A DNA stretch of 64,000 bases. Source: Minisyncoccota bacterium. Its GTDB lineage: Bacteria > Patescibacteriota > Minisyncoccia > 2-02-FULL-40-12 > IGHO2-01-FULL-4-A. Position numbers and translations under genes: made by a program. The stretch spans positions 2,113 through 66,112 of the forward strand of contig DATDXQ010000028.1 in the NCBI GenBank assembly GCA_036517175.1, in the 5' to 3' direction. The stretch's first letter is position 1; every line of letters starts with the position of its first letter. Below, piece after piece: positions 3,093 to 60,658 of this stretch. The notes below the pieces were generated by a model. It ran no database searches. It worked only from the letters and a program-made list of their open reading frames with translations, and was not told the DNA's origin.

Positions 3093-4466
3093 TCAGATGA
3101 TTCTACTCGTCTCTTTTACAGATTCCTCAAAAACACGAACACCTTCTTTGAGTGCGGCATCTGGTATGGTGAGTGGTGGCGCAAGCTTGATTGACTCACG
3201 CCCAGTGTGGACCAGTAACAAACCCTTCTGCATAGCAAGTTCACAAACACGGCTAGCAAAATCACCATCTGGCTCTCCGGTCCTTGATTTTTTGAATAAC
3301 ACCGCAGCCACAAGTCCTCGTCCGTTTATATGAGCAATGTGCTGAGGATATTTTTGCTTGATTTCGTTAAGCATGCCGAACAGAATCTCACCTTTTCTCG
3401 AAGACTCGCCGACCAAATTTCTTGATTCTATCTCTTCTAAATTAGCCAGCCCGGCGGCACACGCCAAAGCATTACCAGAATGAGTACTGTGTCCAACGTC
3501 AGCTAATTCCGCCAGATCAATCAGATCCCTTCTTCCAACAACCGCCGATAAGGGCAGGCTACTACTCAACCCCTTCCCAAGACAAATTAAATCCGGTTTT
3601 ATTTTATAGTGTTCGAAGGCAAACAACTTACCAGTTCTGCCAAAACCGCTTTGTATTTCATCGACAGTAATCAAAAGTTTGTTAATTTTTGCGAACTTAA
3701 TTAATTCGTCCAAATAAGGCTTGGGGTAAAATAATGCTCCCCAACCCTGATAGGCCTCAATCATGACCCCACACAAATTTTCTATTTTCAATCCTTTGCT
3801 AACAAGATCCTTTATATCACTCCTAAATTTCTCCGCCCAATCAATTTTTTTATTTTCCCAACTAAACGGGAAAGGTAACCGATGAATATTTGGATCAGAA
3901 AAACCAAAAACATTAATAAACTTGGCATTACCCTTTAGCGTTTGAGCAACACTTGAAACACCGTGCATATTCCCAAGAAAAGAAAGAACACCAATTTTGT
4001 TCTTATTCGTGAGTTGTCCGTTAACTCTCATTATCAAAACAGCACATTCAGCAACTTCTGTTCCAGAAGAAGCCAAGATAACTTTTTGGCAAAAATCTGG
4101 GGTCACATCAATAAGTTTTTTAGCAAATTTATTTTTTATATCAGTAGGATAATCGTAAGCATGCAGAAGATCATCATTAACCTGTCCAATTATTGCCTTT
4201 TTTATCTTCTTATTTGAATGTCCGCTATTCGCAACAAAAATAGTCGAGGTAAAATCAATCCATTTGTTACCGGCTCCGTCAAAAACGTTAAAATCGATTG
4301 CCCGATCCCAAGCCAGTGGTATCTGTCGTGGCGGCAGACCAACACCAAACCTACCGCCCCCTCTTATTATCTTGACTGTTTCTGGCGAAGGAATGGACGT
4401 TTTTATTATTCTGTATTTTGTCTTAACAAGAGTTACTTTTTTTGGTTTTAAGGAAAAATTATACAT
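3093..4466 (-). CDS. Class III PLP-dependent aminotransferase, probably a sugar aminotransferase.
   Basis: 457 aa. Class-III fold motifs: GSEAVE-like SGTEVAECA, and the DEIQSGFGRTG PLP region. Confidence 0.75.
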   Translation of the reverse strand: MYNFSLKPKKVTLVKTKYRIIKTSIPSPETVKIIRGGGRFGVGLPPRQIPLAWDRAIDFNVFDGAGNKWIDFTSTIFVANSGHSNKKIKKAIIGQVNDDLLHAYDYPTDIKNKFAKKLIDVTPDFCQKVILASSGTEVAECAVLIMRVNGQLTNKNKIGVLSFLGNMHGVSSVAQTLKGNAKFINVFGFSDPNIHRLPFPFSWENKKIDWAEKFRSDIKDLVSKGLKIENLCGVMIEAYQGWGALFYPKPYLDELIKFAKINKLLITVDEIQSGFGRTGKLFAFEHYKIKPDLICLGKGLSSSLPLSAVVGRRDLIDLAELADVGHSTHSGNALACAAGLANLEEIESRNLVGESSRKGEILFGMLNEIKQKYPQHIAHINGRGLVAAVLFKKSRTGEPDGDFASRVCELAMQKGLLLVHTGRESIKLAPPLTIPDAALKEGVRVFEESVKETSRII

Positions 4467-51164: not shown

Positions 51165-51410
51165 CTATCCAGAAACGGAATTTACATGAAAGTGGTCACC
51201 CTGTGAGACAACATTAAATCTCTGGCCACAGCGACAAATAAAAGCAGGTGAAGCTGATGTTCTCCGATCACCCACAAGAATAGAATGATGGAATCCAACC
51301 TCACCAGTGTTTTCATTTTTTAGACCATTCCTACCACAACCACAGGTAATATCTATGGCAACCATATTTTTGCTTATAGGCTCTATCCTAATACCCATGA
51401 TACCCTTCAT
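51165..51410 (-). CDS. Small zinc-ribbon protein.
   Basis: 81 aa. CGCG...CRCG Cys pairs. ATGA overlap with the upstream gene. Confidence 0.45.
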   Translation of the reverse strand: MKGIMGIRIEPISKNMVAIDITCGCGRNGLKNENTGEVGFHHSILVGDRRTSASPAFICRCGQRFNVVSQGDHFHVNSVSG

Positions 51411-51712
51411 CCCTGTCCTCTCAGGTTTTCTACTCTATCCTTTTCATTTACATCCACCGCCATTCTTGTTCCGCCCCCGGCAAGACCCATATCACTTCCC
51501 AAAATCTCAAGGATTATATCCTCAGCCAATCCTTGCCTTCGACAACTAGCGATCGCGCCCGCAATCATAAGTTCCTGGAATTTTAGAGCCATCGCGTCAA
51601 CAACCGGATCACCGCTCTGAGTATCTTGACGTTGTGCTCTTAAGGCGGCCAAATGTAGGATTAATGCACCCTTGGCCATGCCTGCCACAAATTCATTATC
51701 TCGTCCACTCAT
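51407..51712 (-). CDS. Hypothetical protein.
   Basis: ATG at 51710-51712 with a GGAG SD (MSGRDNEF...). The ORF-track TTG start at 51790 is probably an over-extension. Confidence 0.4.
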   Translation of the reverse strand: MSGRDNEFVAGMAKGALILHLAALRAQRQDTQSGDPVVDAMALKFQELMIAGAIASCRRQGLAEDIILEILGSDMGLAGGGTRMAVDVNEKDRVENLRGQG

Positions 51713-51854
51713 GTCATCTTCTCCAATTTTAAATAGCACTTTGATTATACTGCCCAATATAGTTTTTGTCAAATTAAGATAGCACTTCAAATATTAGTTT
51801 AGTGCATATCTTTGCAAATCAAAACCGCCAATAATGGCGGGTGGCAAGATACTC

Positions 51855-52793: not shown

Positions 52794-53870
52794 TTACTTT
52801 TTATTGTTCTGCAAAGGGTGGGATTTATTCTTCTCTACCCTTTCTATCATAAATTTTACAGCCTCGTTCGTATTGATAAATTGTAGCTTTATATCTGGAA
52901 GGTTGTTGTGAAATACCCTAAATATTTCATCCGCAAAAGCTTGTCCAATCATAGGAACCTTATCAAAATCAAATACGACAGATTTAAATTTATCTAAACC
53001 AGACAATACTCTACGTGCTTGGGAGCGAGAAACAAATACACCACCTATTGTATACAGCTTTATCTTAACTTCAGTTTTATCAAATCCTTGATAACCGTCC
53101 TCATTTTCTCCAGTATATTTTCTAAATATATCGTTTAGGTGCCTATCTGAATCTATCGAAATAGAAAAACTAACTTTAGTACCCTTTCTTATAGCTTTTG
53201 GTTTTTGTAAGAAAACATCATTAATTCTGTTGTTTACTATAACTAGTCTGTATCCAAAACTATCTAAATTAAACAGGTCGCCAGCCCTTGAAGTAAAGAA
53301 AATACCCTCACCAGAATGAGATTTAGGTTGTGTGGTTGTTTTTCCTTTCAATAAATCCTGAATGGCCTCGAGCTCCGATTTAAGAGTTCTTTTGACCATT
53401 ATGTTTTTATATACTCCAATTCCAGAATCTATTACATCAAAGAAAAGCTTCTTATTTTCAATTCTGACCTCGACCGTAATATTCTTTGATTTTGAATGCT
53501 CAATAGCATTGTTGAGCATCTCAGAAAAAGCATAAGTAAAAATACTCCTAACATTTTCCTTGAGGGTCAAGATAAGGGGAAACTTATTCTCTAGTTCATT
53601 CAAAACCTTGTGCTCTTCCAGCCCCTTATTCTTTAACGTTTTTTTTATTTTGTTAGGAAAAAGTTCTAAGTGGTTCGCAGCGTATTTAGGATTTAGATAT
53701 GAAGCCTTACTAGTTGAGCCGGTCTTTACTATTTTTCTCTCATTGACCAACTGTTTTAATAAAAAGCTTATATATTGCCTAGAAACGCCAAATATAGAGA
53801 CTAGATCCCTAGTTTTTAATTGTTTTTTTTGCTCTAAAATATTTAGTATTGTTTCTTTAGACAACTTCAT
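52794..53870 (-). CDS. Single-polypeptide wHTH + GHKL (HATPase_c) ATPase + STAS-like (DUF4325) protein.
   Basis: N-terminal HTH (LKTRDLVSIFGVSRQYISFLL). N-box NNAIEHS and G-box DSGIGV. C-terminal VVFDFDKVPMIGQAFADEIFRV, typical of DUF4325. Tandem TTGACA boxes with TATACT 7 nt from the ATG suggest a leaderless start. Confidence 0.6.
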   Translation of the reverse strand: MKLSKETILNILEQKKQLKTRDLVSIFGVSRQYISFLLKQLVNERKIVKTGSTSKASYLNPKYAANHLELFPNKIKKTLKNKGLEEHKVLNELENKFPLILTLKENVRSIFTYAFSEMLNNAIEHSKSKNITVEVRIENKKLFFDVIDSGIGVYKNIMVKRTLKSELEAIQDLLKGKTTTQPKSHSGEGIFFTSRAGDLFNLDSFGYRLVIVNNRINDVFLQKPKAIRKGTKVSFSISIDSDRHLNDIFRKYTGENEDGYQGFDKTEVKIKLYTIGGVFVSRSQARRVLSGLDKFKSVVFDFDKVPMIGQAFADEIFRVFHNNLPDIKLQFINTNEAVKFMIERVEKNKSHPLQNNKK

Positions 53871-54133
53871 TGACTTAAGTATATCAGTTGTAAAGCGGTT
53901 GTCAAGTAGTCTGGGGACGGTTGTCAACTTGGTTGTAAAGTTAGTGGCCGAGCTAGGTCTTCGTTGCTTCGCTCCTCCGAAGCTTTAGCAAAGGAGGGGG
54001 CATTTATTGATACCGAATATCCGGGAGATTTACTATTTTGCTACAAATTAAAAAGCGCCCTTCGATAAACTCAGAGCACTTCTTAATCTCAGTTTACACT
54101 GAGCTTGTCGAAGTGTTGCGGGGACAATCAATC

Positions 54134-54219
54134 GTTGGAACTACTTCTAAGCGATTAGTTGAGAAAGTTTTTAGGTATTACTTAAAAATAAAACCTATCG
54201 ATTAAGATAGGTGTTGGAA
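54134..54219 (-). repeat. Conserved 3'-end element copy A (GATTAGTTGA box plus terminator hairpin), flanked by GTTGGAA.
   Basis: Homologous to 54741-54840 and 58916-59030. Hairpin cctatc/gatagg. Confidence 0.55.
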
Positions 54220-54740: not shown

Positions 54741-54840
54741 CTCACTACTTGATCAGGGCAAGACTGCAAGCGATTAGTTGAAAGGGTGTTTAAATATTAC
54801 TTAGAAAATAAAAAAGAGGGATAAATCCCTCATCTTGGAA
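54741..54840 (-). repeat. Conserved 3'-end element copy B.
   Basis: GATTAGTTGA box at 54772-54781 plus hairpin gaggga/tccctc overlapping the RidA stop codon. Confidence 0.55.
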
Positions 54841-55324: not shown

Positions 55325-55591
55325 TTACAATAAGTCTAGCCCGGCTGATTTATCAGAACAAAAAAGCCGAGGGTTAGTCGGCATTTTGGGTAGTGCCCAA
55401 TTTGTAGGTGGATGGCGCAAGGGCTTCTTTATTCCACAATCCCAACAGTGACCACAATCGCTTATTAAATAATCGTGGTCGCAGGCCCACTTACCTACAT
55501 CGTCAGCACTAATTCTTTTTTTGAGGCCACTCAAACGAATTCTTAACACAAGATATTTAGCATTAGGGGCACGTTCGTATTCTGCTTTCAT
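55325..55591 (-). CDS. Small Cys-rich protein.
   Basis: CDHDYLISDCGHCWDCG cluster. The ATG at 55589-55591 lies 1 nt after the stop of the upstream gene. A hairpin/terminator is embedded in its last 15 codons. Confidence 0.4.
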   Translation of the reverse strand: MKAEYERAPNAKYLVLRIRLSGLKKRISADDVGKWACDHDYLISDCGHCWDCGIKKPLRHPPTNWALPKMPTNPRLFCSDKSAGLDLL

Positions 55592-55592
55592 T

Positions 55593-55811
55593 TTATTTCC
55601 AACCCAATACTTTCCAACCGTGTTCAGCATATAGGCCAAGGCCGTCTTTTCCTTCACAGCATTCAAGGAATGCATTTTCTGTATCAGACCAATAGAAATC
55701 GCCTGTAGAAACTTTTACACCAGGTCCTTCAAAGCGAAGCTTTACTGGTCTCGCCGTTCTCTTGGATGGTTCTGTGGTTTTCCAATTTCTATTTCTTGCT
55801 TTGGTAGCCAT
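55593..55811 (-). CDS. Small basic hypothetical protein (P1).
   Basis: 72 aa. GGAGGAAGAGA SD. Promoter/operator module upstream. Confidence 0.5.
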   Translation of the reverse strand: MATKARNRNWKTTEPSKRTARPVKLRFEGPGVKVSTGDFYWSDTENAFLECCEGKDGLGLYAEHGWKVLGWK

Positions 55812-55846
55812 TCTCTTCCTCCGATAATTTCAATGAACCTGGAAAC

Positions 55847-55875
55847 AAAATACACCTTATTGGTGTATTTTGCAA
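55847..55875 (-). promoter_or_regulatory. Promoter TTGCAA-N17-TATTTT with an embedded operator palindrome AAAATACACC-N5-GGTGTATTTT.
   Basis: Perfect 10-bp inverted repeat spanning the spacer. A near-identical copy sits at 57824-57852. Confidence 0.55.
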
Positions 55876-56072
55876 AATGCCAACCAGGTCTGGGACCCGG
55901 GAAAATTGTACTCGCCGCCTACTGGTGCTGGGCATACCACGACTTCTGTCTCTGGCATTTCGGAGCTCTCGCTCCTCAACTGTCACTCGCCAAAAGGTAT
56001 GTACCACACCTGCTGGCTTTGGTGTTTGGGCAAATCAAAAAGCGGCTAATGCCGCTTTAAACAACTGTTCAA

Positions 56073-56357
56073 TTAGTAAATAGCGAGGGTTTGTCCATTT
56101 ATTACTATCGCCACATCCCTATCCAACGAAGTACATTCAGAATCTACAACAAAATCATCGTTTTTCGTCCGTATCAAAAGAACCAGATGTGCTGGAAATC
56201 CCTCCTTCACTACAAGATCAAAACTAATATCCCCGCTAGAAACATCGCGTAGTTTTTTTCTTGTTTCAAAAACCGCTTCTGAATTTTCTATTGTACGCCC
56301 AGTCTCCTCCAGTGCTATAATCCGATCTTCTTGAGCAGATAACTGCCTTATTTTCAT
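56073..56357 (-). CDS. Hypothetical protein.
   Basis: 95 aa. ATG at 56355-56357 with an AGGAG SD. TTGACA-N17-TATTAT promoter at 56386-56414. The ORF-track start at 56435 is an over-extension. Confidence 0.45.
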   Translation of the reverse strand: MKIRQLSAQEDRIIALEETGRTIENSEAVFETRKKLRDVSSGDISFDLVVKEGFPAHLVLLIRTKNDDFVVDSECTSLDRDVAIVINGQTLAIY

Positions 56358-56623
56358 AACGACTCCTATTTTAAAAGACAATACAATAATACAACCTACA
56401 TGTGGTATTGTCAATCTACACTTTGGCCTGCACATCCACTCTATTGAGCTCTGTATTTCTTCGTTCTCACTCAGTCACTGGCCTCAGTACAAAATTACCT
56501 TCATTCGCTTGTTGCAGAGCTTCGACAGAATTGCCTGCCTGCCGTAGCTTTAGCAAAGTAGGGTGAGGAGTTGGTAAAAATAAAACCGAGGAGAGCTCGG
56601 TATTGGTAAAACGTAATTATTTA

Positions 56624-57358
56624 TTAGTATTCTGCGACTGTTAAATTCATGGATAAATCTAAAAAGGAATCTACGCAGAGAAATGGCCCACCGGGGGTTT
56701 CAAATGTTCTTTTATTTTGTAAGACTGGTTCGACACACACATAATCTTTAGGTGCATCGGTCCACAAGACAAGTTGGGATTTGACTGGCGCAAACGCTCC
56801 TCCAAGCTCCATCATTATATTTTTGCTTGGCATAGCGATAAGAATGGCCTCACTACTTATTCCTACTGATCTCGATTCACAAGAAAAACCATTGTAGGCA
56901 GCTCCACCATTCAAAACTCTTACAGTGCTCTCGTCTTTACATCCAAAATACGGATGAAATGCTGGAAGCACTGGGGCTGGTATAACTTCTTTGTCATCCA
57001 TCCGATCTATACGTAATGTCATCTTCAATCCATTAGTATATGCGTAGACTCCAATCTCGTATCCTAAAGACCATGGATAGCTTTCATTCCCAGGATGATG
57101 AAAAATTAGTTTGGCATTATTAGATTCGAGTTTTACATCTCGGGCCTCCAAATCTCGTAGATAACCATGCTTCTTCTTGCTTCTTGGGGATTGACCAAAC
57201 CATGGAGCACATATATGACAGCCACCACGTGCCTTATCTCCAATTTGGCGCCAAGGATACAATATCTCTAGCTTATCTACTACGGCAGAGGTAATAGTCC
57301 CGCCAGTAGAAGAGAGGTGAATTTCCGTTTGGCCATTTCTAATAACAATATCTTCCAT
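56624..57358 (-). CDS. D-hexose-6-phosphate mutarotase / aldose 1-epimerase family (YeaD-like).
   Basis: GGCHICAPWFG and HGYLR motifs. ATG at 57356-57358 with a GGAGG SD. TTGACA-N17-TATTTT promoter at 57400-57428. Confidence 0.6.
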   Translation of the reverse strand: MEDIVIRNGQTEIHLSSTGGTITSAVVDKLEILYPWRQIGDKARGGCHICAPWFGQSPRSKKKHGYLRDLEARDVKLESNNAKLIFHHPGNESYPWSLGYEIGVYAYTNGLKMTLRIDRMDDKEVIPAPVLPAFHPYFGCKDESTVRVLNGGAAYNGFSCESRSVGISSEAILIAMPSKNIMMELGGAFAPVKSQLVLWTDAPKDYVCVEPVLQNKRTFETPGGPFLCVDSFLDLSMNLTVAEY

Positions 57359-57565
57359 CGTGTCCTCCAGACCTAGCAAATTGTTAAATAGATAATAAAA
57401 AAATAGCACTTCATTGCTATTTTGTCAATATATTCTTGCCCTTCGTGATTACACTCAGGGCTGCGTCGGCCTTCGCCTCCTTGTTGCAGAAGTGTTGCGT
57501 GATTGGCAACAAATACTGCTTGATTTGAAAGAAGTCTACACTTTTGCAAATTAAAAAGTGCGATA

Positions 57566-57793
57566 TTATCGCACTTCAAATCTTCGGCCAAACCAATAAC
57601 AGCCGGGTTCTTCTTGAAGTTCCATTCGGCCACCCTCGTTATGCCATTGGGCAGGATTGTCTGCAAAAAGAGTTCTGCACTTATCGGAAGGTATAAATTC
57701 TTTTACAGTATATTTTCTTCCTTTTGTCAGCGCTGGTCCAATACCTTCCATTTTTTCATCAACACATTCGACCGTCTGGCCTTCTTGAAACAT
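57566..57793 (-). CDS. Small hypothetical protein (P2).
   Basis: 75 aa. AAGGAG SD. The operator-containing promoter at 57824-57852 is paralogous to the P1 promoter. Confidence 0.5.
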   Translation of the reverse strand: MFQEGQTVECVDEKMEGIGPALTKGRKYTVKEFIPSDKCRTLFADNPAQWHNEGGRMELQEEPGCYWFGRRFEVR

Positions 57794-57823
57794 ACACTTC
57801 TCCTTGTTAATTTAGCTGAAAAC

Positions 57824-57852
57824 AAAATACACCAATAAGGTGTATTTTGCAA
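57824..57852 (-). promoter_or_regulatory. Promoter TTGCAA-N17-TATTTT with operator palindrome AAAATACACC-N5-GGTGTATTTT (copy 2).
   Basis: Same palindrome arms as 55847-55871. The loop is AATAA rather than TTATT. Confidence 0.55.
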
Positions 57853-57949
57853 CTTATGCCAATCTTGTCTCATTTGTTGCGGAACTCTTACGCAGTTGAC
57901 ACCTTTTGATACCGAATATACAAAAGATTTGCAATTTTGCTCTGGTATA

Positions 57950-58146
57950 AAAAGTGAACCCCCGGGTCGTGGCCACGACATCGGGGGTTAATGTGCACGG
58001 ATTGTTTACCGTGCTGCCTGTTTTCGACCTTGCGGTCGGGCGACCTCCAATAGGGTTTGGGGAGCCTAGGCTCCTTATCCGCCTGTGGCGGACCTACCTT
58101 CGAACCCTCCTCTCGAGAAGCTACCTCAAGAGAAACTCAATGTTGT
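57950..58146 (-). ncRNA. Standalone roughly 200-nt GC-rich structured RNA with its own promoter and terminator. Class not identified.
   Basis: TTGACT-N17-TATACT promoter at 58153-58181. GC-rich terminator hairpin at 57957-57989 plus T5. No ORF. Much more GC-rich than the surrounding sequence. Confidence 0.55.
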
Positions 58147-58346
58147 GAATTAAGTATAGCATATCCTAAGTATAAAGTCAATAGCAACCAAAAACAGCCC
58201 TTGAAAGCTGTTTTTGCAAAGTGCCAAATGGGTCTGGGACCTGGAAATTTGTTGCAGAATTAGGACTTCGTTGGTATTTAATATTACCGGGTATCAAAGA
58301 AATTTATCAGTTTAATCTTGTAAATTAAAAGTCCGCAAAGCGGACA

Positions 58347-58529
58347 TTAGATAGATTTGGGAATTTTACCTTTACCATTGCAGGTCGGGCAGGTTGTAGT
58401 TCTGGTTTCTGGCATTGGAAAACCAAATAATCCTATATATGCAGCGTTCATGATTGTTTCTGTCTTTGAGCCAGACCCGCTGCAATTCCAGCAGATCTGC
58501 TCTTTATTTTGATCTTTGTTGGTTGCCAC
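58347..58529 (-). CDS. Small zinc-ribbon protein.
   Basis: 61 aa. CWNC...CPTC. ATG with a GGGGGTGA SD. TTGACA-N17-TATTGT promoter at 58568-58596. Confidence 0.5.
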   Translation of the reverse strand: MATNKDQNKEQICWNCSGSGSKTETIMNAAYIGLFGFPMPETRTTTCPTCNGKGKIPKSI

Positions 58530-58698
58530 CATACTATCACCCCCTATCTGTGTTAAGGAACAATAAAACAATACGCCATTTCTGGCGTATTGTCAATATT
58601 TGCACTTCGGCCTGTTGGCCTCAGTACAAAATTACCTTCGTAATTTATTTTTGTACCCTTCGGCTGTTGCCTACGGGCACTGCGTCGCCTTCGCTCCT

Positions 58699-58718
58699 TG
58701 TTGCGGGGGCAGGATTTG
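58699..58718 (-). repeat. 20-nt direct repeat of the tRNA-fMet 3' end (att-like).
   Basis: TGTTGCGGGGGCAGGATTTG is identical to 60584-60603 inside or adjacent to the tRNA gene. Confidence 0.6.
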
Positions 58719-58915
58719 GTTTCGCCTCTCGTTGGCTTCCGCCTCCTCGGGCTAACCACCACCTCGCGTGACTTTATGCCAATTGCATAAAGTCACATGC
58801 TCCGGCGTTCAAATACTGACGAAAGTGACACGGGTCACTTCCTCTCCCCGCAAACATATACGATAAATATAAACGGCTCACATGGTGAGCCGTTTATATT
58901 TTGGGGCAATCAAAT

Positions 58916-59030
58916 GTTGGAACCCTTCGACTACGCTCAGGACAGGCTTGTAAAAGATTAGTTGAGAATATATTTAGATATTATTTGGAGAATAAAAACG
59001 GCATTTAGCCGTATATATTTGTTGGTGAAG
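58916..59030 (-). repeat. Conserved 3'-end element copy C.
   Basis: GATTAGTTGA box at 58956-58965. Hairpin cggc/gccg at the stop codon of the 59005 gene. GTTGGAA / GTTGGTGAA flanks. Confidence 0.5.
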
Positions 59031-59774: not shown

Positions 59775-59943
59775 TCACCTCTAAGTTGAATAAGGACTGG
59801 AAAGATATTAGCAAACAAGGGGTTCCAAATCAATGTCCCCGATGTCATTCACGACATTCGCTAAGCATGCTCCGCATACAACTTGTTGTTGTGCGGGGTT
59901 CGCCAAGTTTTACAATGTCCCAGAAATGTACTAATCTTTTGAA

Positions 59944-60402
59944 ATGGATTTTGAATATTTTAACTCAAGGAAAGAAAAAGTCCGAGAAACTTACAATAAA
60001 CAAAAGGCTATTTTCTGTCCCTTTCTTCAGGCTCAGGTTGTTTTAAACTCAGATGGATTTCATCACTTACAATTCTCCGATAGAAGAGAGCGAGGCAAAG
60101 AAGAGCAACTATTAAAATTTAATCTATTACCTCTGGCGCTCGATATTATTAAAAAATCAGGAACGCTTCAGGAATACAGAAAGGAACCGGTTAGAATCGG
60201 GCGCACATCAAAAGACGGTTTTTCTACAACTAAAATCGCTGAATATTTTGGATTCGTAGCCATAGTCGGAGAAAAGAAAATTAAGATAAGGGTTATTGTG
60301 AGACGAATCGGCGATGGGAATTTTAGCTTTTGGAGTGTAATGCCAGACAGTAAGCTGAAAGGCGGTCAAAGATTATATGATTACGGAATCGAAGATAATT
60401 AA
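59944..60402 (+). CDS. Hypothetical protein.
   Basis: 152 aa. TTTACA-N17-TAATCT promoter-like sequence close to the ATG. Terminator hairpin at 60404-60440. Confidence 0.4.
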   Translation: MDFEYFNSRKEKVRETYNKQKAIFCPFLQAQVVLNSDGFHHLQFSDRRERGKEEQLLKFNLLPLALDIIKKSGTLQEYRKEPVRIGRTSKDGFSTTKIAEYFGFVAIVGEKKIKIRVIVRRIGDGNFSFWSVMPDSKLKGGQRLYDYGIEDN

Positions 60403-60585
60403 AACTAAAAAACGCCCCATGAGGCGTTTTTTAGTGTGCCTGTCTTCAGCTTTGGAAATCCTTAGCTGAACGGGGCTTGCGCCCACAAGCACGATGTAAA
60501 TGTAGCATACTTTAGTTAAAAAAAGCAAGTCCTGTTGATAATTCTATGAAAAACAGGAGATTTCTCTCCTGTTTCTCCTGCTCTG

Positions 60586-60658
60586 TTGCGGGGGCAGGAT
60601 TTGAACCTGCGATCTTTGGGTTATGAGCCCAACGAGATGACCACTTCTCCACCCCGCG
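60586..60658 (-). tRNA. Initiator tRNA-fMet (anticodon CAT).
   Basis: Cloverleaf folded by hand. C1:A72 mismatch. D-stem GAGA/TCTC with A11:U24. Three G-C pairs at the base of the anticodon stem (GGG/CCC). T-loop GGTTCAAATCC. Terminator hairpin at 60548-60580. Confidence 0.8.

What the first reader, a model, noticed from the sequence alone, without database searches (positions are those of the whole stretch)
55847..57852. Identical operator palindrome AAAATACACC-N5-GGTGTATTTT embedded in two paralogous promoters; the 5-nt loop is complemented
Both copies (55847-55871 and 57824-57848) lie exactly across the spacer of a TTGCAA-N17-TATTTT promoter. The downstream 5'UTRs are also similar. The two genes served (P1 at 55593..55811 and P2 at 57566..57793) are unrelated small proteins. 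The central 5 nt are TTATT in one copy and AATAA in the other. The likely reading is a shared repressor-operator regulon. No invertible switch is implied, because the arms are symmetric.
Basis: seen in the sequence. Interest (0 to 1): 0.55.

Follow-up and report, generated by a model that had tools for sequence, protein, structure and literature searches.

The report
Hairpin-in-promoter module behind initiator tRNA repeats
The two identical palindromes are real, but they are most likely two copies of a portable promoter-plus-terminator module that normally sits just behind the initiator tRNA gene in these groundwater bacteria, and not binding sites for a shared repressor.

Summary
AAAATACACC-N5-GGTGTATTTT occurs at 55847-55871 and 57824-57848, with 0 matches expected by chance. 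It is really a 27-nt perfect hairpin whose loop is reverse-complemented between the copies. Each copy spans a TTGCAA-N17-TATTTT promoter-like site 30-36 nt upstream of an unrelated small ORF on the minus strand.

The operator reading is poorly supported.
- Neighbouring promoters in the same 51-60.5 kb island, and in related contigs, have the same layout with at least 7 different, always complementary, stem sequences. 15 of 18 such sites carry 9-11 bp stems; controls reach at most 5 bp.
- Every further -35-linked copy found (11 loci) lies 30-45 nt after a tRNA-Met 3'-end repeat. In three genomes it directly follows a complete initiator tRNA gene.
- In one contig a large-serine-recombinase element separates the tRNA from the module.
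- Homologues of P1 and P2 elsewhere use other promoters.

Best reading: a composite terminator/promoter module, functionally like the PeSLs of T4-type phages, belonging to the tRNA-fMet 3' flank and multiplied in an insertion island. The loop flip is a mutational scar that recurs in a second hairpin family, not a switch. No transcript data were available, so both activities are inferred.

The parts
55846..55872 (-). P1 copy of the 27-nt perfect hairpin (CAAAATACACC-AATAA-GGTGTATTTTG on the sense strand)
   Evidence: (I1); RNA dG -15.3 kcal/mol
55847..55875 (-). P1 promoter-like site: TTGCAA (55875-55870), 17-nt spacer, TATTTT (55852-55847)
   Evidence: the TTG lies outside the palindrome yet is kept in all module variants
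55876..55915 (-). Upstream flank of the P1 module (..GTACAATTTTCCCGGGTCCCAGACCTGGTTGGCATT), a degenerate tRNA-end repeat plus att-like flank. It is homologous to the flanks of Pk, L030, L128 and L136.
   Evidence: (D8)
55325..55811 (-). Cargo of the P1 module: P1 ORF (55593-55811, 72 aa) and a coupled 88-aa Cys-rich ORF (55325-55591). The terminator is at 55366-55382.
57823..57849 (-). P2 copy of the 27-nt hairpin (loop TTATT on the sense strand)
   Evidence: RNA dG -15.9 kcal/mol
57824..57852 (-). P2 promoter-like site: TTGCAA (57852-57847), N17, TATTTT (57829-57824)
57853..57882 (-). tRNA-end repeat CCGCAAC (57882-57876) plus the flank AAATGAGACAAGATTGGCATAAG upstream of P2. It is about 80% similar (by eye) to the native tRNA-fMet flank AAATAGGACGGAATTGGCAT of L130-L134.
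57566..57793 (-). P2 ORF (75 aa, an ORFan). Its own terminator is at 57555-57577.
58189..58219 (-). Pk: same module type (flank 83% identical to P1's) with a different stem, CAAAAACAGC-N8-GCTGTTTTTG, and a defective -10 (TGTTTT). CTGCAAC repeat at 58257-58251. A second promoter, TTGACT-17-TATACT, lies at 58181-58153.
   Evidence: (D8)
57400..57428 (-). Pi: TTGACA-N17-TATTTT with hairpin AAAATAGCA-N6-TGCTATTTT, upstream of the aldose-epimerase-like ORF 56624-57358. CTGCAAC repeat at 57489-57483.
58568..58596 (-). G3 promoter: TTGACA-N17-TATTGT with hairpin ACAATACGCCA-GAAA-TGGCGTATTGT, upstream of the 61-aa zinc-ribbon ORF 58347-58532
   Evidence: L136 carries the same arms with the loop flipped to TTTC
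58699..58718 (-). Exact 20-nt copy of the tRNA-Met 3' end (CAAATCCTGCCCCCGCAACA)
56386..56414 (-). G6 promoter: TTGACA-N17-TATTAT with a decayed hairpin (3 mismatches), upstream of ORF 56073-56357. CTGCAAC repeat at 56517-56511.
60585..60658 (-). tRNA-Met(CAT) gene at the head of the island. It is of initiator type: C1xA72 mismatch and GGG/CCC in the anticodon stem (read from the sequence). Its own terminator is at 60551-60574.

Best explanation
The palindrome is the stem-loop of a composite terminator/promoter module. A sigma-70-type promoter (TTGCAA/TTGACA-N17-TATT(T/G)T) has a spacer, the 3' half of its -35 and its -10 that together fold into a 9-11 bp hairpin followed by a T-run.

In this lineage of uncultured groundwater bacteria (Rifle and Hainich samples) the module belongs to the DNA just 3' of the initiator tRNA-Met gene. 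The order is tRNA end (..CCCCGCAAC), about 30 nt (..TTGGCA..), the hairpin promoter, an SD, then a variable small cargo gene.

Insertions at the tRNA 3' end have produced an island at 51-60.5 kb. One such insertion, by a large-serine-recombinase element, is seen in a related contig (L134). In the island, several copies and diverged versions of the module each head a one- or two-gene unit. P1 and P2 carry the same stem because they are copies of the same module subtype, not because they share a regulator.

Inferred mechanism: as RNA or DNA, the hairpin plus T-run stops transcription arriving from upstream (the tRNA, or the preceding unit). The embedded -35/-10 then restarts transcription of the cargo. 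The loop carries no information and has been flipped by a hairpin-mediated inversion.

Shown: the sequence anatomy, the covariation, the link to tRNA-end repeats and the variety of cargo. Inferred: promoter activity, terminator activity and the route of multiplication.
For: 1. Geometry. A perfect 27-nt hairpin sits exactly across TTGCAA-N17-TATTTT, with ATG 30-36 nt downstream and no room for another promoter.

2. The same layout occurs with other stems in the island (58568-58596, 58189-58219, 57400-57428, 56386-56414) and in relative L030.

3. Of 18 promoter-like sites lying within 150 nt after a C[CT]GCAAC repeat, 15 have 9-11 bp perfect stems. At most 2 of 2000 spacer shuffles reach this. 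Of 25 control sites, 24 reach at most 5 bp; the one exception (11 bp) is P1 itself, whose repeat is degenerate.

4. Covariation on arms centred on each hairpin's own axis: 94.5% of cells paired versus 62% in shuffles (0/500). Covariation score 0.774 versus 0.198. Slid registers give 33-56%. The outermost pair runs C-G, then T.G, then T-A; a wobble intermediate suggests the pairing matters in RNA.

5. The TTG of the -35 lies outside the stem yet is invariant. T-12, A-11 and T-7 of the -10 are kept in all but Pk. This argues for a real promoter.

6. Predicted RNA hairpins are -8 to -18 kcal/mol for the perfect stems (-8.3 for Pi, -11 to -18 for the others) and are followed by U-rich tails. Bona fide ORF and tRNA terminators in the locus span -7 to -20. 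The consensus scan calls two of the hairpins terminator-like.

7. All 10 metagenome loci with TTGYAAAATACACC-N5-GGTGTATTTT, and L030, have the tRNA-Met 3' end or its repeat 30-45 nt upstream, and their cargo differs. In L129 and L133 a complete tRNA-Met directly precedes the module. In L130 a group-I-intron-bearing tRNA-fMet does. No other terminator lies between tRNA and hairpin.

8. In L134 a large serine recombinase abuts the tRNA-fMet 3' exon. About 9.7 kb further on, the inserted DNA ends at CCGCAACAAGTAGGACG.. followed by the module.

9. P1 and P2 homologues elsewhere have other promoters.

10. There is a literature precedent for sigma-70 promoters with terminator stem-loops placed between -35 and -10, next to ORFans in hyperplastic regions: PMC2839356 and PMC4122927.
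Against: No transcript data exist, so neither promoter nor terminator activity is shown.

Each island ORF already has its own GC-rich terminator 100-450 nt upstream of the next hairpin. A second terminator therefore seems redundant in the window, and space is not limiting, so the overlap needs another rationale or is a relic of the compact tRNA flank.

In the window, L030, L120, L125 and L128 the tRNA-fMet gene has a different dedicated terminator.

The P1/P2 stems are AT-rich (5 G-C pairs of 11), and the simple terminator scan did not flag them.

Invariance of the type-A arms across loci was imposed by the search pattern, so it cannot be used for or against an operator.

The axis-centred alignment is biased towards pairing, and part of its 'covariation' comes from register shifts of related sequence.
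Confidence: 0.55

Rival explanations
1. Operator. A dimeric DNA-binding protein recognises the AAAATACACC/GGTGTATTTT half-sites and represses P1, P2 and the other type-A modules together by occluding the -35/-10 spacer.
For: The dyad is perfect with a free centre and lies exactly where repressors act. Between the window and L030 the arms are 20/20 identical, while flanks appear about 60-70% identical by eye. Loop sequence is unconstrained. An HTH-GHKL-STAS protein is encoded in the island.
Against: Sister modules keep the hairpin but change its sequence with compensation. The dyad axis also shifts by +/-0.5 nt relative to the promoter, which would need a different protein for each subtype in a small genome. 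Every copy found has the tRNA-end flank, so it spreads by descent and not by regulon recruitment. P1 and P2 homologues elsewhere lack it. The cargo genes are unrelated ORFans. The T.G intermediate at the outer pair is tolerated in RNA, not in a duplex recognition site. No cognate regulator was identified, and PADLOC and Pfam give no lead.
Confidence: 0.15
2. DNA-level recombination site. The hairpin, folded in single-stranded or cruciform DNA, is the point at which cargo is swapped, like an integron attC or a PeSL crossover. The promoter likeness then serves the captured gene.
For: Structure is conserved while sequence varies, as in attC. Cargo differs immediately downstream of an otherwise conserved module. 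L127 and L030 are 99.9% identical over 892 nt and diverge 5 nt after the hairpin. P1 is a mosaic: its upstream flank resembles Pk and its hairpin resembles P2 (D6/D8, 29). Loop flips recur in two hairpin families, which shows the DNA can fold or recombine at the arms. PeSL crossovers map within or next to the stem-loop.
Against: There are no integron R boxes (RYYYAAC/GTTRRRY) in the arms, by sequence inspection. None of the 14 island ORFs scanned with Pfam is a recombinase, and the window has no homologue of the L134 recombinase. The one clear insertion junction, in L134, is at the tRNA-end core 37 nt upstream of the hairpin, not in it. L127 is a 2x-coverage contig and may be an assembly chimera at a repeat. 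The strain contigs show no rearrangement.
Confidence: 0.12
3. Terminator or attenuator only. The hairpin is simply the tRNA-fMet trailer terminator, copied along with the flank. The -35/-10 likeness is a by-product of A/T tracts, and cargo is expressed by read-through from upstream.
For: The hairpin plus T-run directly follows complete tRNA genes in L129, L130 and L133. The bare palindrome serves as a terminator in many unrelated bacteria. At Pk the -10 is defective and a separate promoter follows.
Against: The unpaired TTG lies exactly 17 nt from TAxxxT in all subtypes. In the window the units are preceded by strong ORF terminators, so read-through would be minimal. At G6 the hairpin has decayed while the hexamers have moved towards consensus (TTGACA/TATTAT).
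Confidence: 0.1
4. Supercoiling-sensitive promoter. Cruciform extrusion of the palindrome under high negative supercoiling destroys the -35/-10 geometry and switches the promoter off. (Own knowledge: Horwitz & Loeb 1988 described such a selected E. coli promoter.)
For: The inverted repeat is perfect, AT-rich and 11 bp long, with a short loop, and it includes both hexamers. Pairing is under selection although the hairpin is not in the promoter's own transcript.
Against: There is no direct evidence. Cruciform extrusion of such short repeats is rare in vivo (own knowledge). The T.G intermediate would destabilise a DNA cruciform.
Confidence: 0.06

Closest known systems
PeSLs (promoter-early stem-loops) of T4-type phages (Arbiol et al. 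2010, PMC2839356; Comeau et al. 2014, PMC4122927)
   Same: Both are near-consensus sigma-70 promoters (TTGACA-N17-..) combined with a stem-loop. The stem-loop is most often placed between -35 and -10 or over the -10. SD and ATG follow closely. Both are repeated in front of small ORFans in a hyperplastic region. Stem sequence differs between element sets. The same module heads different cargo.
   Different: This is a bacterial chromosome island, not a phage genome. Stems are AT-rich with A/T tracts rather than G4..C4. Each unit has a separate ORF terminator and a long GC-rich spacer. Modules are tied to tRNA-fMet 3'-end repeats. No terminator or promoter assay and no mini-circles have been shown here.
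Intrinsic (bidirectional) terminators in tRNA gene trailers
   Same: A hairpin flanked by an A-tract and a T-tract lies 24-40 nt after the tRNA-fMet 3' end in L129, L130 and L133. Its predicted stability matches local terminators.
   Different: It carries a phased TTGNNA-N17-TAxxxT promoter, and in the window it occurs far from any tRNA.
Palindromic operators overlapping promoters (LexA/TetR-type repressors; MerR-type spacer operators)
   Same: Perfect dyad symmetry centred in the -35/-10 spacer.
   Different: The spacer is the optimal 17 bp, not the 19-20 bp typical of MerR-type promoters (own knowledge). The arms covary between copies and the dyad register shifts. No cognate protein is known, and copies are linked by descent.
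Integron attC sites
   Same: Hairpins at the boundary of small, same-strand ORFan units, conserved in structure more than in sequence.
   Different: They are 25-28 bp rather than 57-141 bp (own knowledge). There are no R''/R' core sites and no IntI. The units have their own promoters and terminators.
tRNA-targeting integrative elements and the islands they build, e.g. tycheposons of Prochlorococcus (bioRxiv 10.1101/2020.12.28.424599, listed; abstract only read)
   Same: An island next to a tRNA gene, with repeated partial tRNA 3' ends between blocks of variable cargo. A recombinase-bearing element sits at the same tRNA in a relative.
   Different: The units in the window are only 1-2 genes long. 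No recombinase lies within the 64-kb window's island. The target is the initiator tRNA. The repeats retain only 7-20 nt of the tRNA.
Small hairpin-loop inversions in perfect inverted repeats (well documented in chloroplast non-coding DNA; own knowledge)
   Same: The loop is replaced by its reverse complement while arms and flanks stay in place. This recurs independently: AATAA/TTATT in type A, and GAAA/TTTC in the G3/L136 family.
   Different: The setting here is a bacterial promoter. The mechanism (template switch or gene conversion from an inverted copy) is not established.

Membership tests
PeSL-like composite promoter/terminator cassette | Sigma-70-type -35 and -10 boxes at 17-nt spacing, followed by SD and start codon | tested here: met
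   TTGCAA/TTGACA-N17-TATT(T/G)T with SD-ATG 25-40 nt downstream in 15 hairpin modules
PeSL-like composite promoter/terminator cassette | Stem-loop within or overlapping the promoter | tested here: met
   9-11 bp perfect stems spanning the -35 3' half to the -10; at most 2 of 2000 shuffles match; covariation
PeSL-like composite promoter/terminator cassette | Enriched in a hyperplastic region in front of ORFans, with the same motif heading different genes | tested here: met
   Hairpin promoters occur only at 55.8-58.6 kb of the 64-kb window. P1 and P2 have 3 and 5 homologues among 5.8 billion proteins. Cargo differs in all loci.
PeSL-like composite promoter/terminator cassette | Promoter and terminator activity demonstrated | not testable with these tools
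   Only predicted: dG -8 to -18 kcal/mol with a U-rich tail
PeSL-like composite promoter/terminator cassette | Resides in a T4-type phage genome and recombines into mini-circles | tested here: not met
   The context is chromosomal (FtsA, FtsZ, RNR, tRNA). Viral-contig scans found no homologous module. So this is a functional analogue, not a family member.
Repressor operator / regulon | The same site at several otherwise unrelated promoters | tested here: not met
   All 13 type-A copies share the tRNA-end flank and upstream module. No copy was found outside that context, though the collections are not exhaustive; for example, L084 was not returned.
Repressor operator / regulon | Conservation of half-site sequence rather than of pairing | tested here: not met
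   At least 7 stem sequences with compensatory changes, and the axis shifts by +/-0.5 nt
Repressor operator / regulon | A cognate DNA-binding protein | not testable with these tools
   HTH-GHKL-STAS (52794-53927) is a candidate only by proximity; no binding data
Intrinsic terminator | Stable stem-loop followed by a U-run, downstream of a transcription unit | tested here: met
   It directly follows tRNA-fMet in L129, L130 and L133. The simple scan flags 58594-58567 and 58216-58189 but not the P1 or P2 copies.
Integron attC | R''/R' core sites RYYYAAC...GTTRRRY and an IntI integrase nearby | tested here: not met
   The arms are CAAAATAC../..GTATTTTG. No recombinase among the 14 island ORFs scanned.
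MerR-type spacer operator | Dyad in an over-long 19-20 bp spacer | tested here: not met
   The spacer is 17 bp in all copies
tRNA-gene insertion island | Intact tRNA at one edge and repeated partial 3' ends of that tRNA inside the island | tested here: met
   tRNA-Met at 60585-60658. Exact 20-nt copy at 58699-58718. Shorter C[CT]GCAAC repeats at 58257, 57882, 57489, 56517 and 54121.
tRNA-gene insertion island | A site-specific recombinase acting at that tRNA | tested here: inconclusive
   A large serine recombinase lies next to tRNA-fMet in related contig L134. None was found in the window.

The most novel reading that the evidence does not exclude
The hairpin promoter is not merely a regulatory relic but the working junction of an integron-like gene-capture platform anchored at the initiator tRNA of CPR-type groundwater bacteria. 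In this reading the tRNA-fMet end plus about 30 nt acts as the attachment site. The folded hairpin marks or catalyses cargo exchange just downstream. The embedded promoter expresses whatever is captured while the stem protects the essential tRNA from read-through.
Probability: 0.12. Interest if true: 0.8.

Novelty: new variant of a known kind. Interest (0 to 1): 0.42.

Why it matters
If the reading holds, small-genome groundwater bacteria carry a portable "stop-and-restart" transcription module behind their initiator tRNA. This module accompanies newly acquired ORFan genes. It would explain how foreign cargo inserted next to an essential tRNA gets expressed without disturbing the tRNA.

It would also extend the phage PeSL concept to bacterial chromosomes. 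And it provides a set of naturally covarying hairpin-in-spacer promoters that could be tested directly for coupling between termination and initiation.

It is also a caution: identical palindromes in promoters should not be read as operators until descent from a common module has been excluded.

Tried and rejected
- Loop switch. I looked for loop-orientation polymorphism across the strain contigs that carry each locus and found none.
- Strain cassette shuffling. I first thought L080 showed it. BLAST showed all strain contigs are colinear and 99.9-100% identical to the window, so the differences were gene calling only (corrected in note 3).
- L063. It looked related from its flank but is an ordinary terminator followed by the rpsP promoter.
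- Bare palindrome in 185,579 species genomes. 78 stretches were found, and all but L030 are non-homologous terminators.
- Viral contigs. Four scans found no homologous module. The generic TTGACAATAC-N12-GTATTGT pattern hits some phage promoters with palindromic spacers, but that pattern itself imposes 7-bp outer complementarity.
- Sigma-54 reading of TTGGCA..TTGCA. Rejected: the spacing is 1-3 nt where 5 is required.
- MerR-type operator. Rejected: the spacer is 17 bp.
- N4-type hairpin promoters and ssDNA (Frpo-type) promoters. Considered and rejected: here the two hexamers pair with each other rather than being displayed.
- Rfam. Nothing in the region except the tRNA.
- Pfam and PADLOC. No leads on regulators, recombinases or defence genes among the island ORFs.
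- Hairpin as the upstream gene's terminator. Rejected for the window, because each ORF has its own GC-rich terminator.
- Taxonomy. The organism could not be identified with the tools left. L030's record calls it 'Gammaproteobacteria', which I could not check.
Full report
**Observation.**
AAAATACACC-TTATT-GGTGTATTTT lies at 55847-55871 and AAAATACACC-AATAA-GGTGTATTTT at 57824-57848. With up to three mismatches these are the only two matches in the window, and none occurred in 100 shuffles.

The identity extends to 27 nt. The two copies are perfect reverse complements of each other (I1), so the loop is inverted inside otherwise direct flanks.

All genes here are on the minus strand. On that strand both copies read TTGCAA-N17-TATTTT, with SD and ATG 30-36 nt downstream. 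P1 and P2 share no protein similarity, have no Pfam hits, and have only 3 and 5 homologues in 5.8 billion proteins. An 88-aa ORF is translationally coupled to P1.

**The palindrome is one case of a local rule.**
A scan for perfect hairpins and for promoter-like sites found the same anatomy at neighbouring promoters. In each, the -35 3' half, the spacer and the -10 fold into one stem-loop, but the stem sequences differ:
- ACAATACGCCA-GAAA-TGGCGTATTGT at 58568-58596
- AAAATAGCA-N6-TGCTATTTT at 57400-57428
- CAAAAACAGC-N8-GCTGTTTTTG at 58189-58219
- a decayed copy at 56386-56414

None occurs in the core 1-50 kb.

Both sit in TTGACA/TTGTAA-N17-TATT(G/T)T promoters in front of unrelated genes.

Over the window and its relatives I found 18 promoter-like sites that follow a C[CT]GCAAC motif. 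Fifteen have perfect 9-11 bp stems, and at most 2 of 2000 spacer shuffles reach this. Of 25 control sites, 24 reach at most 5 bp; the one exception (11 bp) is P1 itself, whose tRNA-end repeat is degenerate.

I then counted pairs on arms centred on each hairpin's own axis:
- 94.5% of cells pair, against 62% in shuffles (0 of 500 shuffles reach this).
- The covariation score is 0.774 against 0.198.
- Slid registers give 33-56%.

This alignment is biased towards pairing, and part of the signal is a register shift of related sequence. Even so, three inner positions each show two or three Watson-Crick pair types. The outermost pair runs C-G, then T.G, then T-A across loci. The symmetry axis sits at promoter position 16.5, 17 or 17.5. 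The conserved TTG is never part of the stem.

So pairing is selected, and so is a phased -35/-10. One fixed half-site sequence is not.

**Where the module comes from.**
The island starts at a tRNA-Met gene (60585-60658). From its sequence this is an initiator tRNA: it has the C1xA72 mismatch and GGG/CCC in the anticodon stem. This reading rests on established identity rules.

Its last 20 nt recur exactly at 58699-58718. Shorter C[CT]GCAAC(A) copies precede every hairpin promoter.

A metagenome scan for the palindrome with its -35 (TTGYAAAATACACC-N5-GGTGTATTTT) returned ten loci from Hainich and Rifle groundwater. All ten have the tRNA end or its repeat 30-45 nt upstream, and their cargo genes differ.
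- In L129 and L133 a complete tRNA-Met directly precedes the module.
- In L130 the tRNA carries a group I intron (Rfam 76 bits).
- In these three loci the hairpin is the first terminator-like structure after the tRNA.
- In L134 a large serine recombinase (Resolvase+Recombinase+Zn_ribbon_recom) abuts the tRNA-fMet 3' exon. About 9.7 kb further on, the inserted DNA ends at CCGCAACAAGTAGGACG.. followed by the module.

The module is therefore part of the tRNA-fMet 3' flank. It is displaced, and evidently multiplied, by insertions at the tRNA end. How the extra copies arise was not resolved. Possibilities are element-borne mimics of the flank or unequal recombination.

**Gene-independence.**
The P1 homologue in L120 uses a different promoter module. 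The more distant homologue in L122 and L124 lies second in a two-gene unit with its own promoter. The P2 homologues in L125 and L126 have yet other promoters, though still in islands with tRNA-end repeats. Conversely, the type-A module heads at least eight unrelated cargo genes. P1's module is itself a mosaic: its upstream flank is 83% identical to Pk's, and its hairpin is identical to P2's.

**How it probably works.**
As RNA, the perfect stems fold at -8 to -18 kcal/mol and have U-rich tails. That is the same range as the ORF and tRNA terminators of the locus, -7 to -20.

The closest described system is the PeSL of T4-type phages. These are sigma-70 promoters with terminator stem-loops, most often between -35 and -10. 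They are repeated before ORFans in hyperplastic regions, have experimentally shown promoter and terminator activity, and are implicated in modular shuffling (PMC2839356, PMC4122927).

I therefore read the element as a stop-and-restart module. It terminates incoming transcription (the tRNA, or the preceding unit) and then initiates the cargo transcript.

The weaknesses are these:
- There are no transcript data.
- Island ORFs already have their own terminators.
- The P1 and P2 stems are AT-rich.
- In the window the tRNA has another terminator.

**The loop.**
Loop orientation is fixed at each locus in all strain contigs that carry it, and these contigs are colinear with the window. So there is no active switch.

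The flip is nevertheless recurrent. The G3 hairpin has loop GAAA in the window and TTTC in L136, with identical arms. Among type-A loops, three (TTATT, CTATT, GCATT) look like reverse complements of the majority class.

This is the signature of hairpin-mediated inversion or of conversion from an inverted copy. Such events are known from perfect inverted repeats elsewhere (own knowledge). It also shows that the loop carries no information.

**Rivals.**
An operator remains possible for the type-A subtype (0.15). It does not explain the covarying sister modules, the shifting axis, the T.G intermediate, or the exclusive link to the tRNA flank.

A DNA-level recombination role (0.12) is suggested by cargo changing right after the hairpin. 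L127 and L030 are 99.9% identical over 892 nt and then diverge 5 nt after the hairpin. However, L127 is a 2x-coverage contig, and the one clear insertion junction, in L134, lies at the tRNA core and not at the hairpin.

A terminator-only reading (0.10) and a cruciform/supercoiling control (0.06) are also listed.

**Verdict.**
The operator/regulon reading is not supported.

The element is a new variant of a known kind: a composite promoter/terminator cassette, here chromosomal and tied to tRNA-fMet insertion scars. Interest is moderate, 0.42.

Noticed in passing
window 57940-58150 (-), with promoter-like TTGACT-17-TATACT at 58181-58153 and a terminator hairpin at about 57950-57990: A GC-rich segment of about 210 nt with no ORF, lying between the Pk hairpin and the P2 module. 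It folds far better than shuffles (dG -87.8 kcal/mol, z = -5.3) and has no Rfam match. It is a candidate structured RNA.
   Followed up: partly
window 54134-54195, 54753-54814, 58937-58998 (repeat family D2); also L030, L120, L126, L131, L132: A conserved module of about 60 nt lies directly after ORF terminators. On the minus strand it reads TTTTCTAAGTAATA..CTTTCAACTAATCGCTT... It is usually followed by a pseudo T-arm/acceptor, GTTCCAAC-N8-TTG(T/C)CCCCGCAAC. On the plus strand it translates to ..LVEKVFRYYL.., but no long ORF exists. It may be the other arm of the attachment sites.
   Followed up: partly
L120 2824-3021, L125 141-343, L130 1113-1303: The initiator tRNA-Met genes of related genomes are interrupted by group I introns (Rfam RF00028, 74-80 bits). 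The window's tRNA-Met has no intron.
   Followed up: partly
L134 10276-11826 and about 2061: A large serine recombinase gene runs into the tRNA-fMet 3' exon. The inserted element of about 9.7 kb also encodes an AAA_25/DnaB-like protein. It ends at a CCGCAACAA repeat followed by the type-A hairpin promoter.
   Followed up: partly
L127 915-920 versus L030 2158-2163: The two contigs are 99.9% identical over 892 nt and then diverge completely 5 nt after the hairpin. This is either a real cargo swap at the promoter or an assembly chimera in a 2x-coverage contig.
   Followed up: partly
window 59775-59860 (-); L030 about 3340-3440 (-); L120 about 4290-4396: A third, hairpin-less promoter module (..GAATGACATCGGGGACATTGATT-N17-TAATAT..) is shared by three genomes. 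In each it follows an antisense gene placed right after the tRNA-fMet terminator. That gene is DUF3800 in L030 and L120, and an unassigned 152-aa ORF (59944-60402) in the window.
   Followed up: no
window 58865-58901 and 58768-58796: A 17-bp-arm perfect palindrome (AAATATAAACGGCTCAC-atg-GTGAGCCGTTTATATTT) and a 12-bp-arm palindrome lie in the long spacer upstream of the G3 promoter. Their function is unknown.
   Followed up: no
window 56479-56502 and 58616-58639: An exact 24-nt direct repeat (TGGCCTCAGTACAAAATTACCTTC on the plus strand) occurs in two different inter-unit spacers. It is part of the longer 'type B' spacer shared by the G3 and G6 upstream regions.
   Followed up: no
L004, L009, L011, L015, L024-L026, L028, L031, L036, L047, L048, L052, L057, L060, L075, L076, L078 (Enterousia and other alphaproteobacterial MAGs): The same 10-nt arms form a hairpin about 10 nt after a ..CCCCCGCAACCA tRNA 3' end in an unrelated phylum. 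In several loci it appears to lie between two convergent tRNA genes. This is probably coincidence, but it is the same tRNA type.
   Followed up: no
L134 7180-7301 (-): An Rfam LOOT RNA match (52.7 bits, gathering threshold 46.4) lies inside the inserted element.
   Followed up: no
window 51744-51795 (-): The canonical TTGACA-17-TATAAT promoter of the ORF that starts at about 51711 (inside listed ORF 51407-51790) is bracketed by a direct repeat, AGTGCTAT(C/T)TTAA(T/A)TT. This is a possible operator of a different kind.
   Followed up: no
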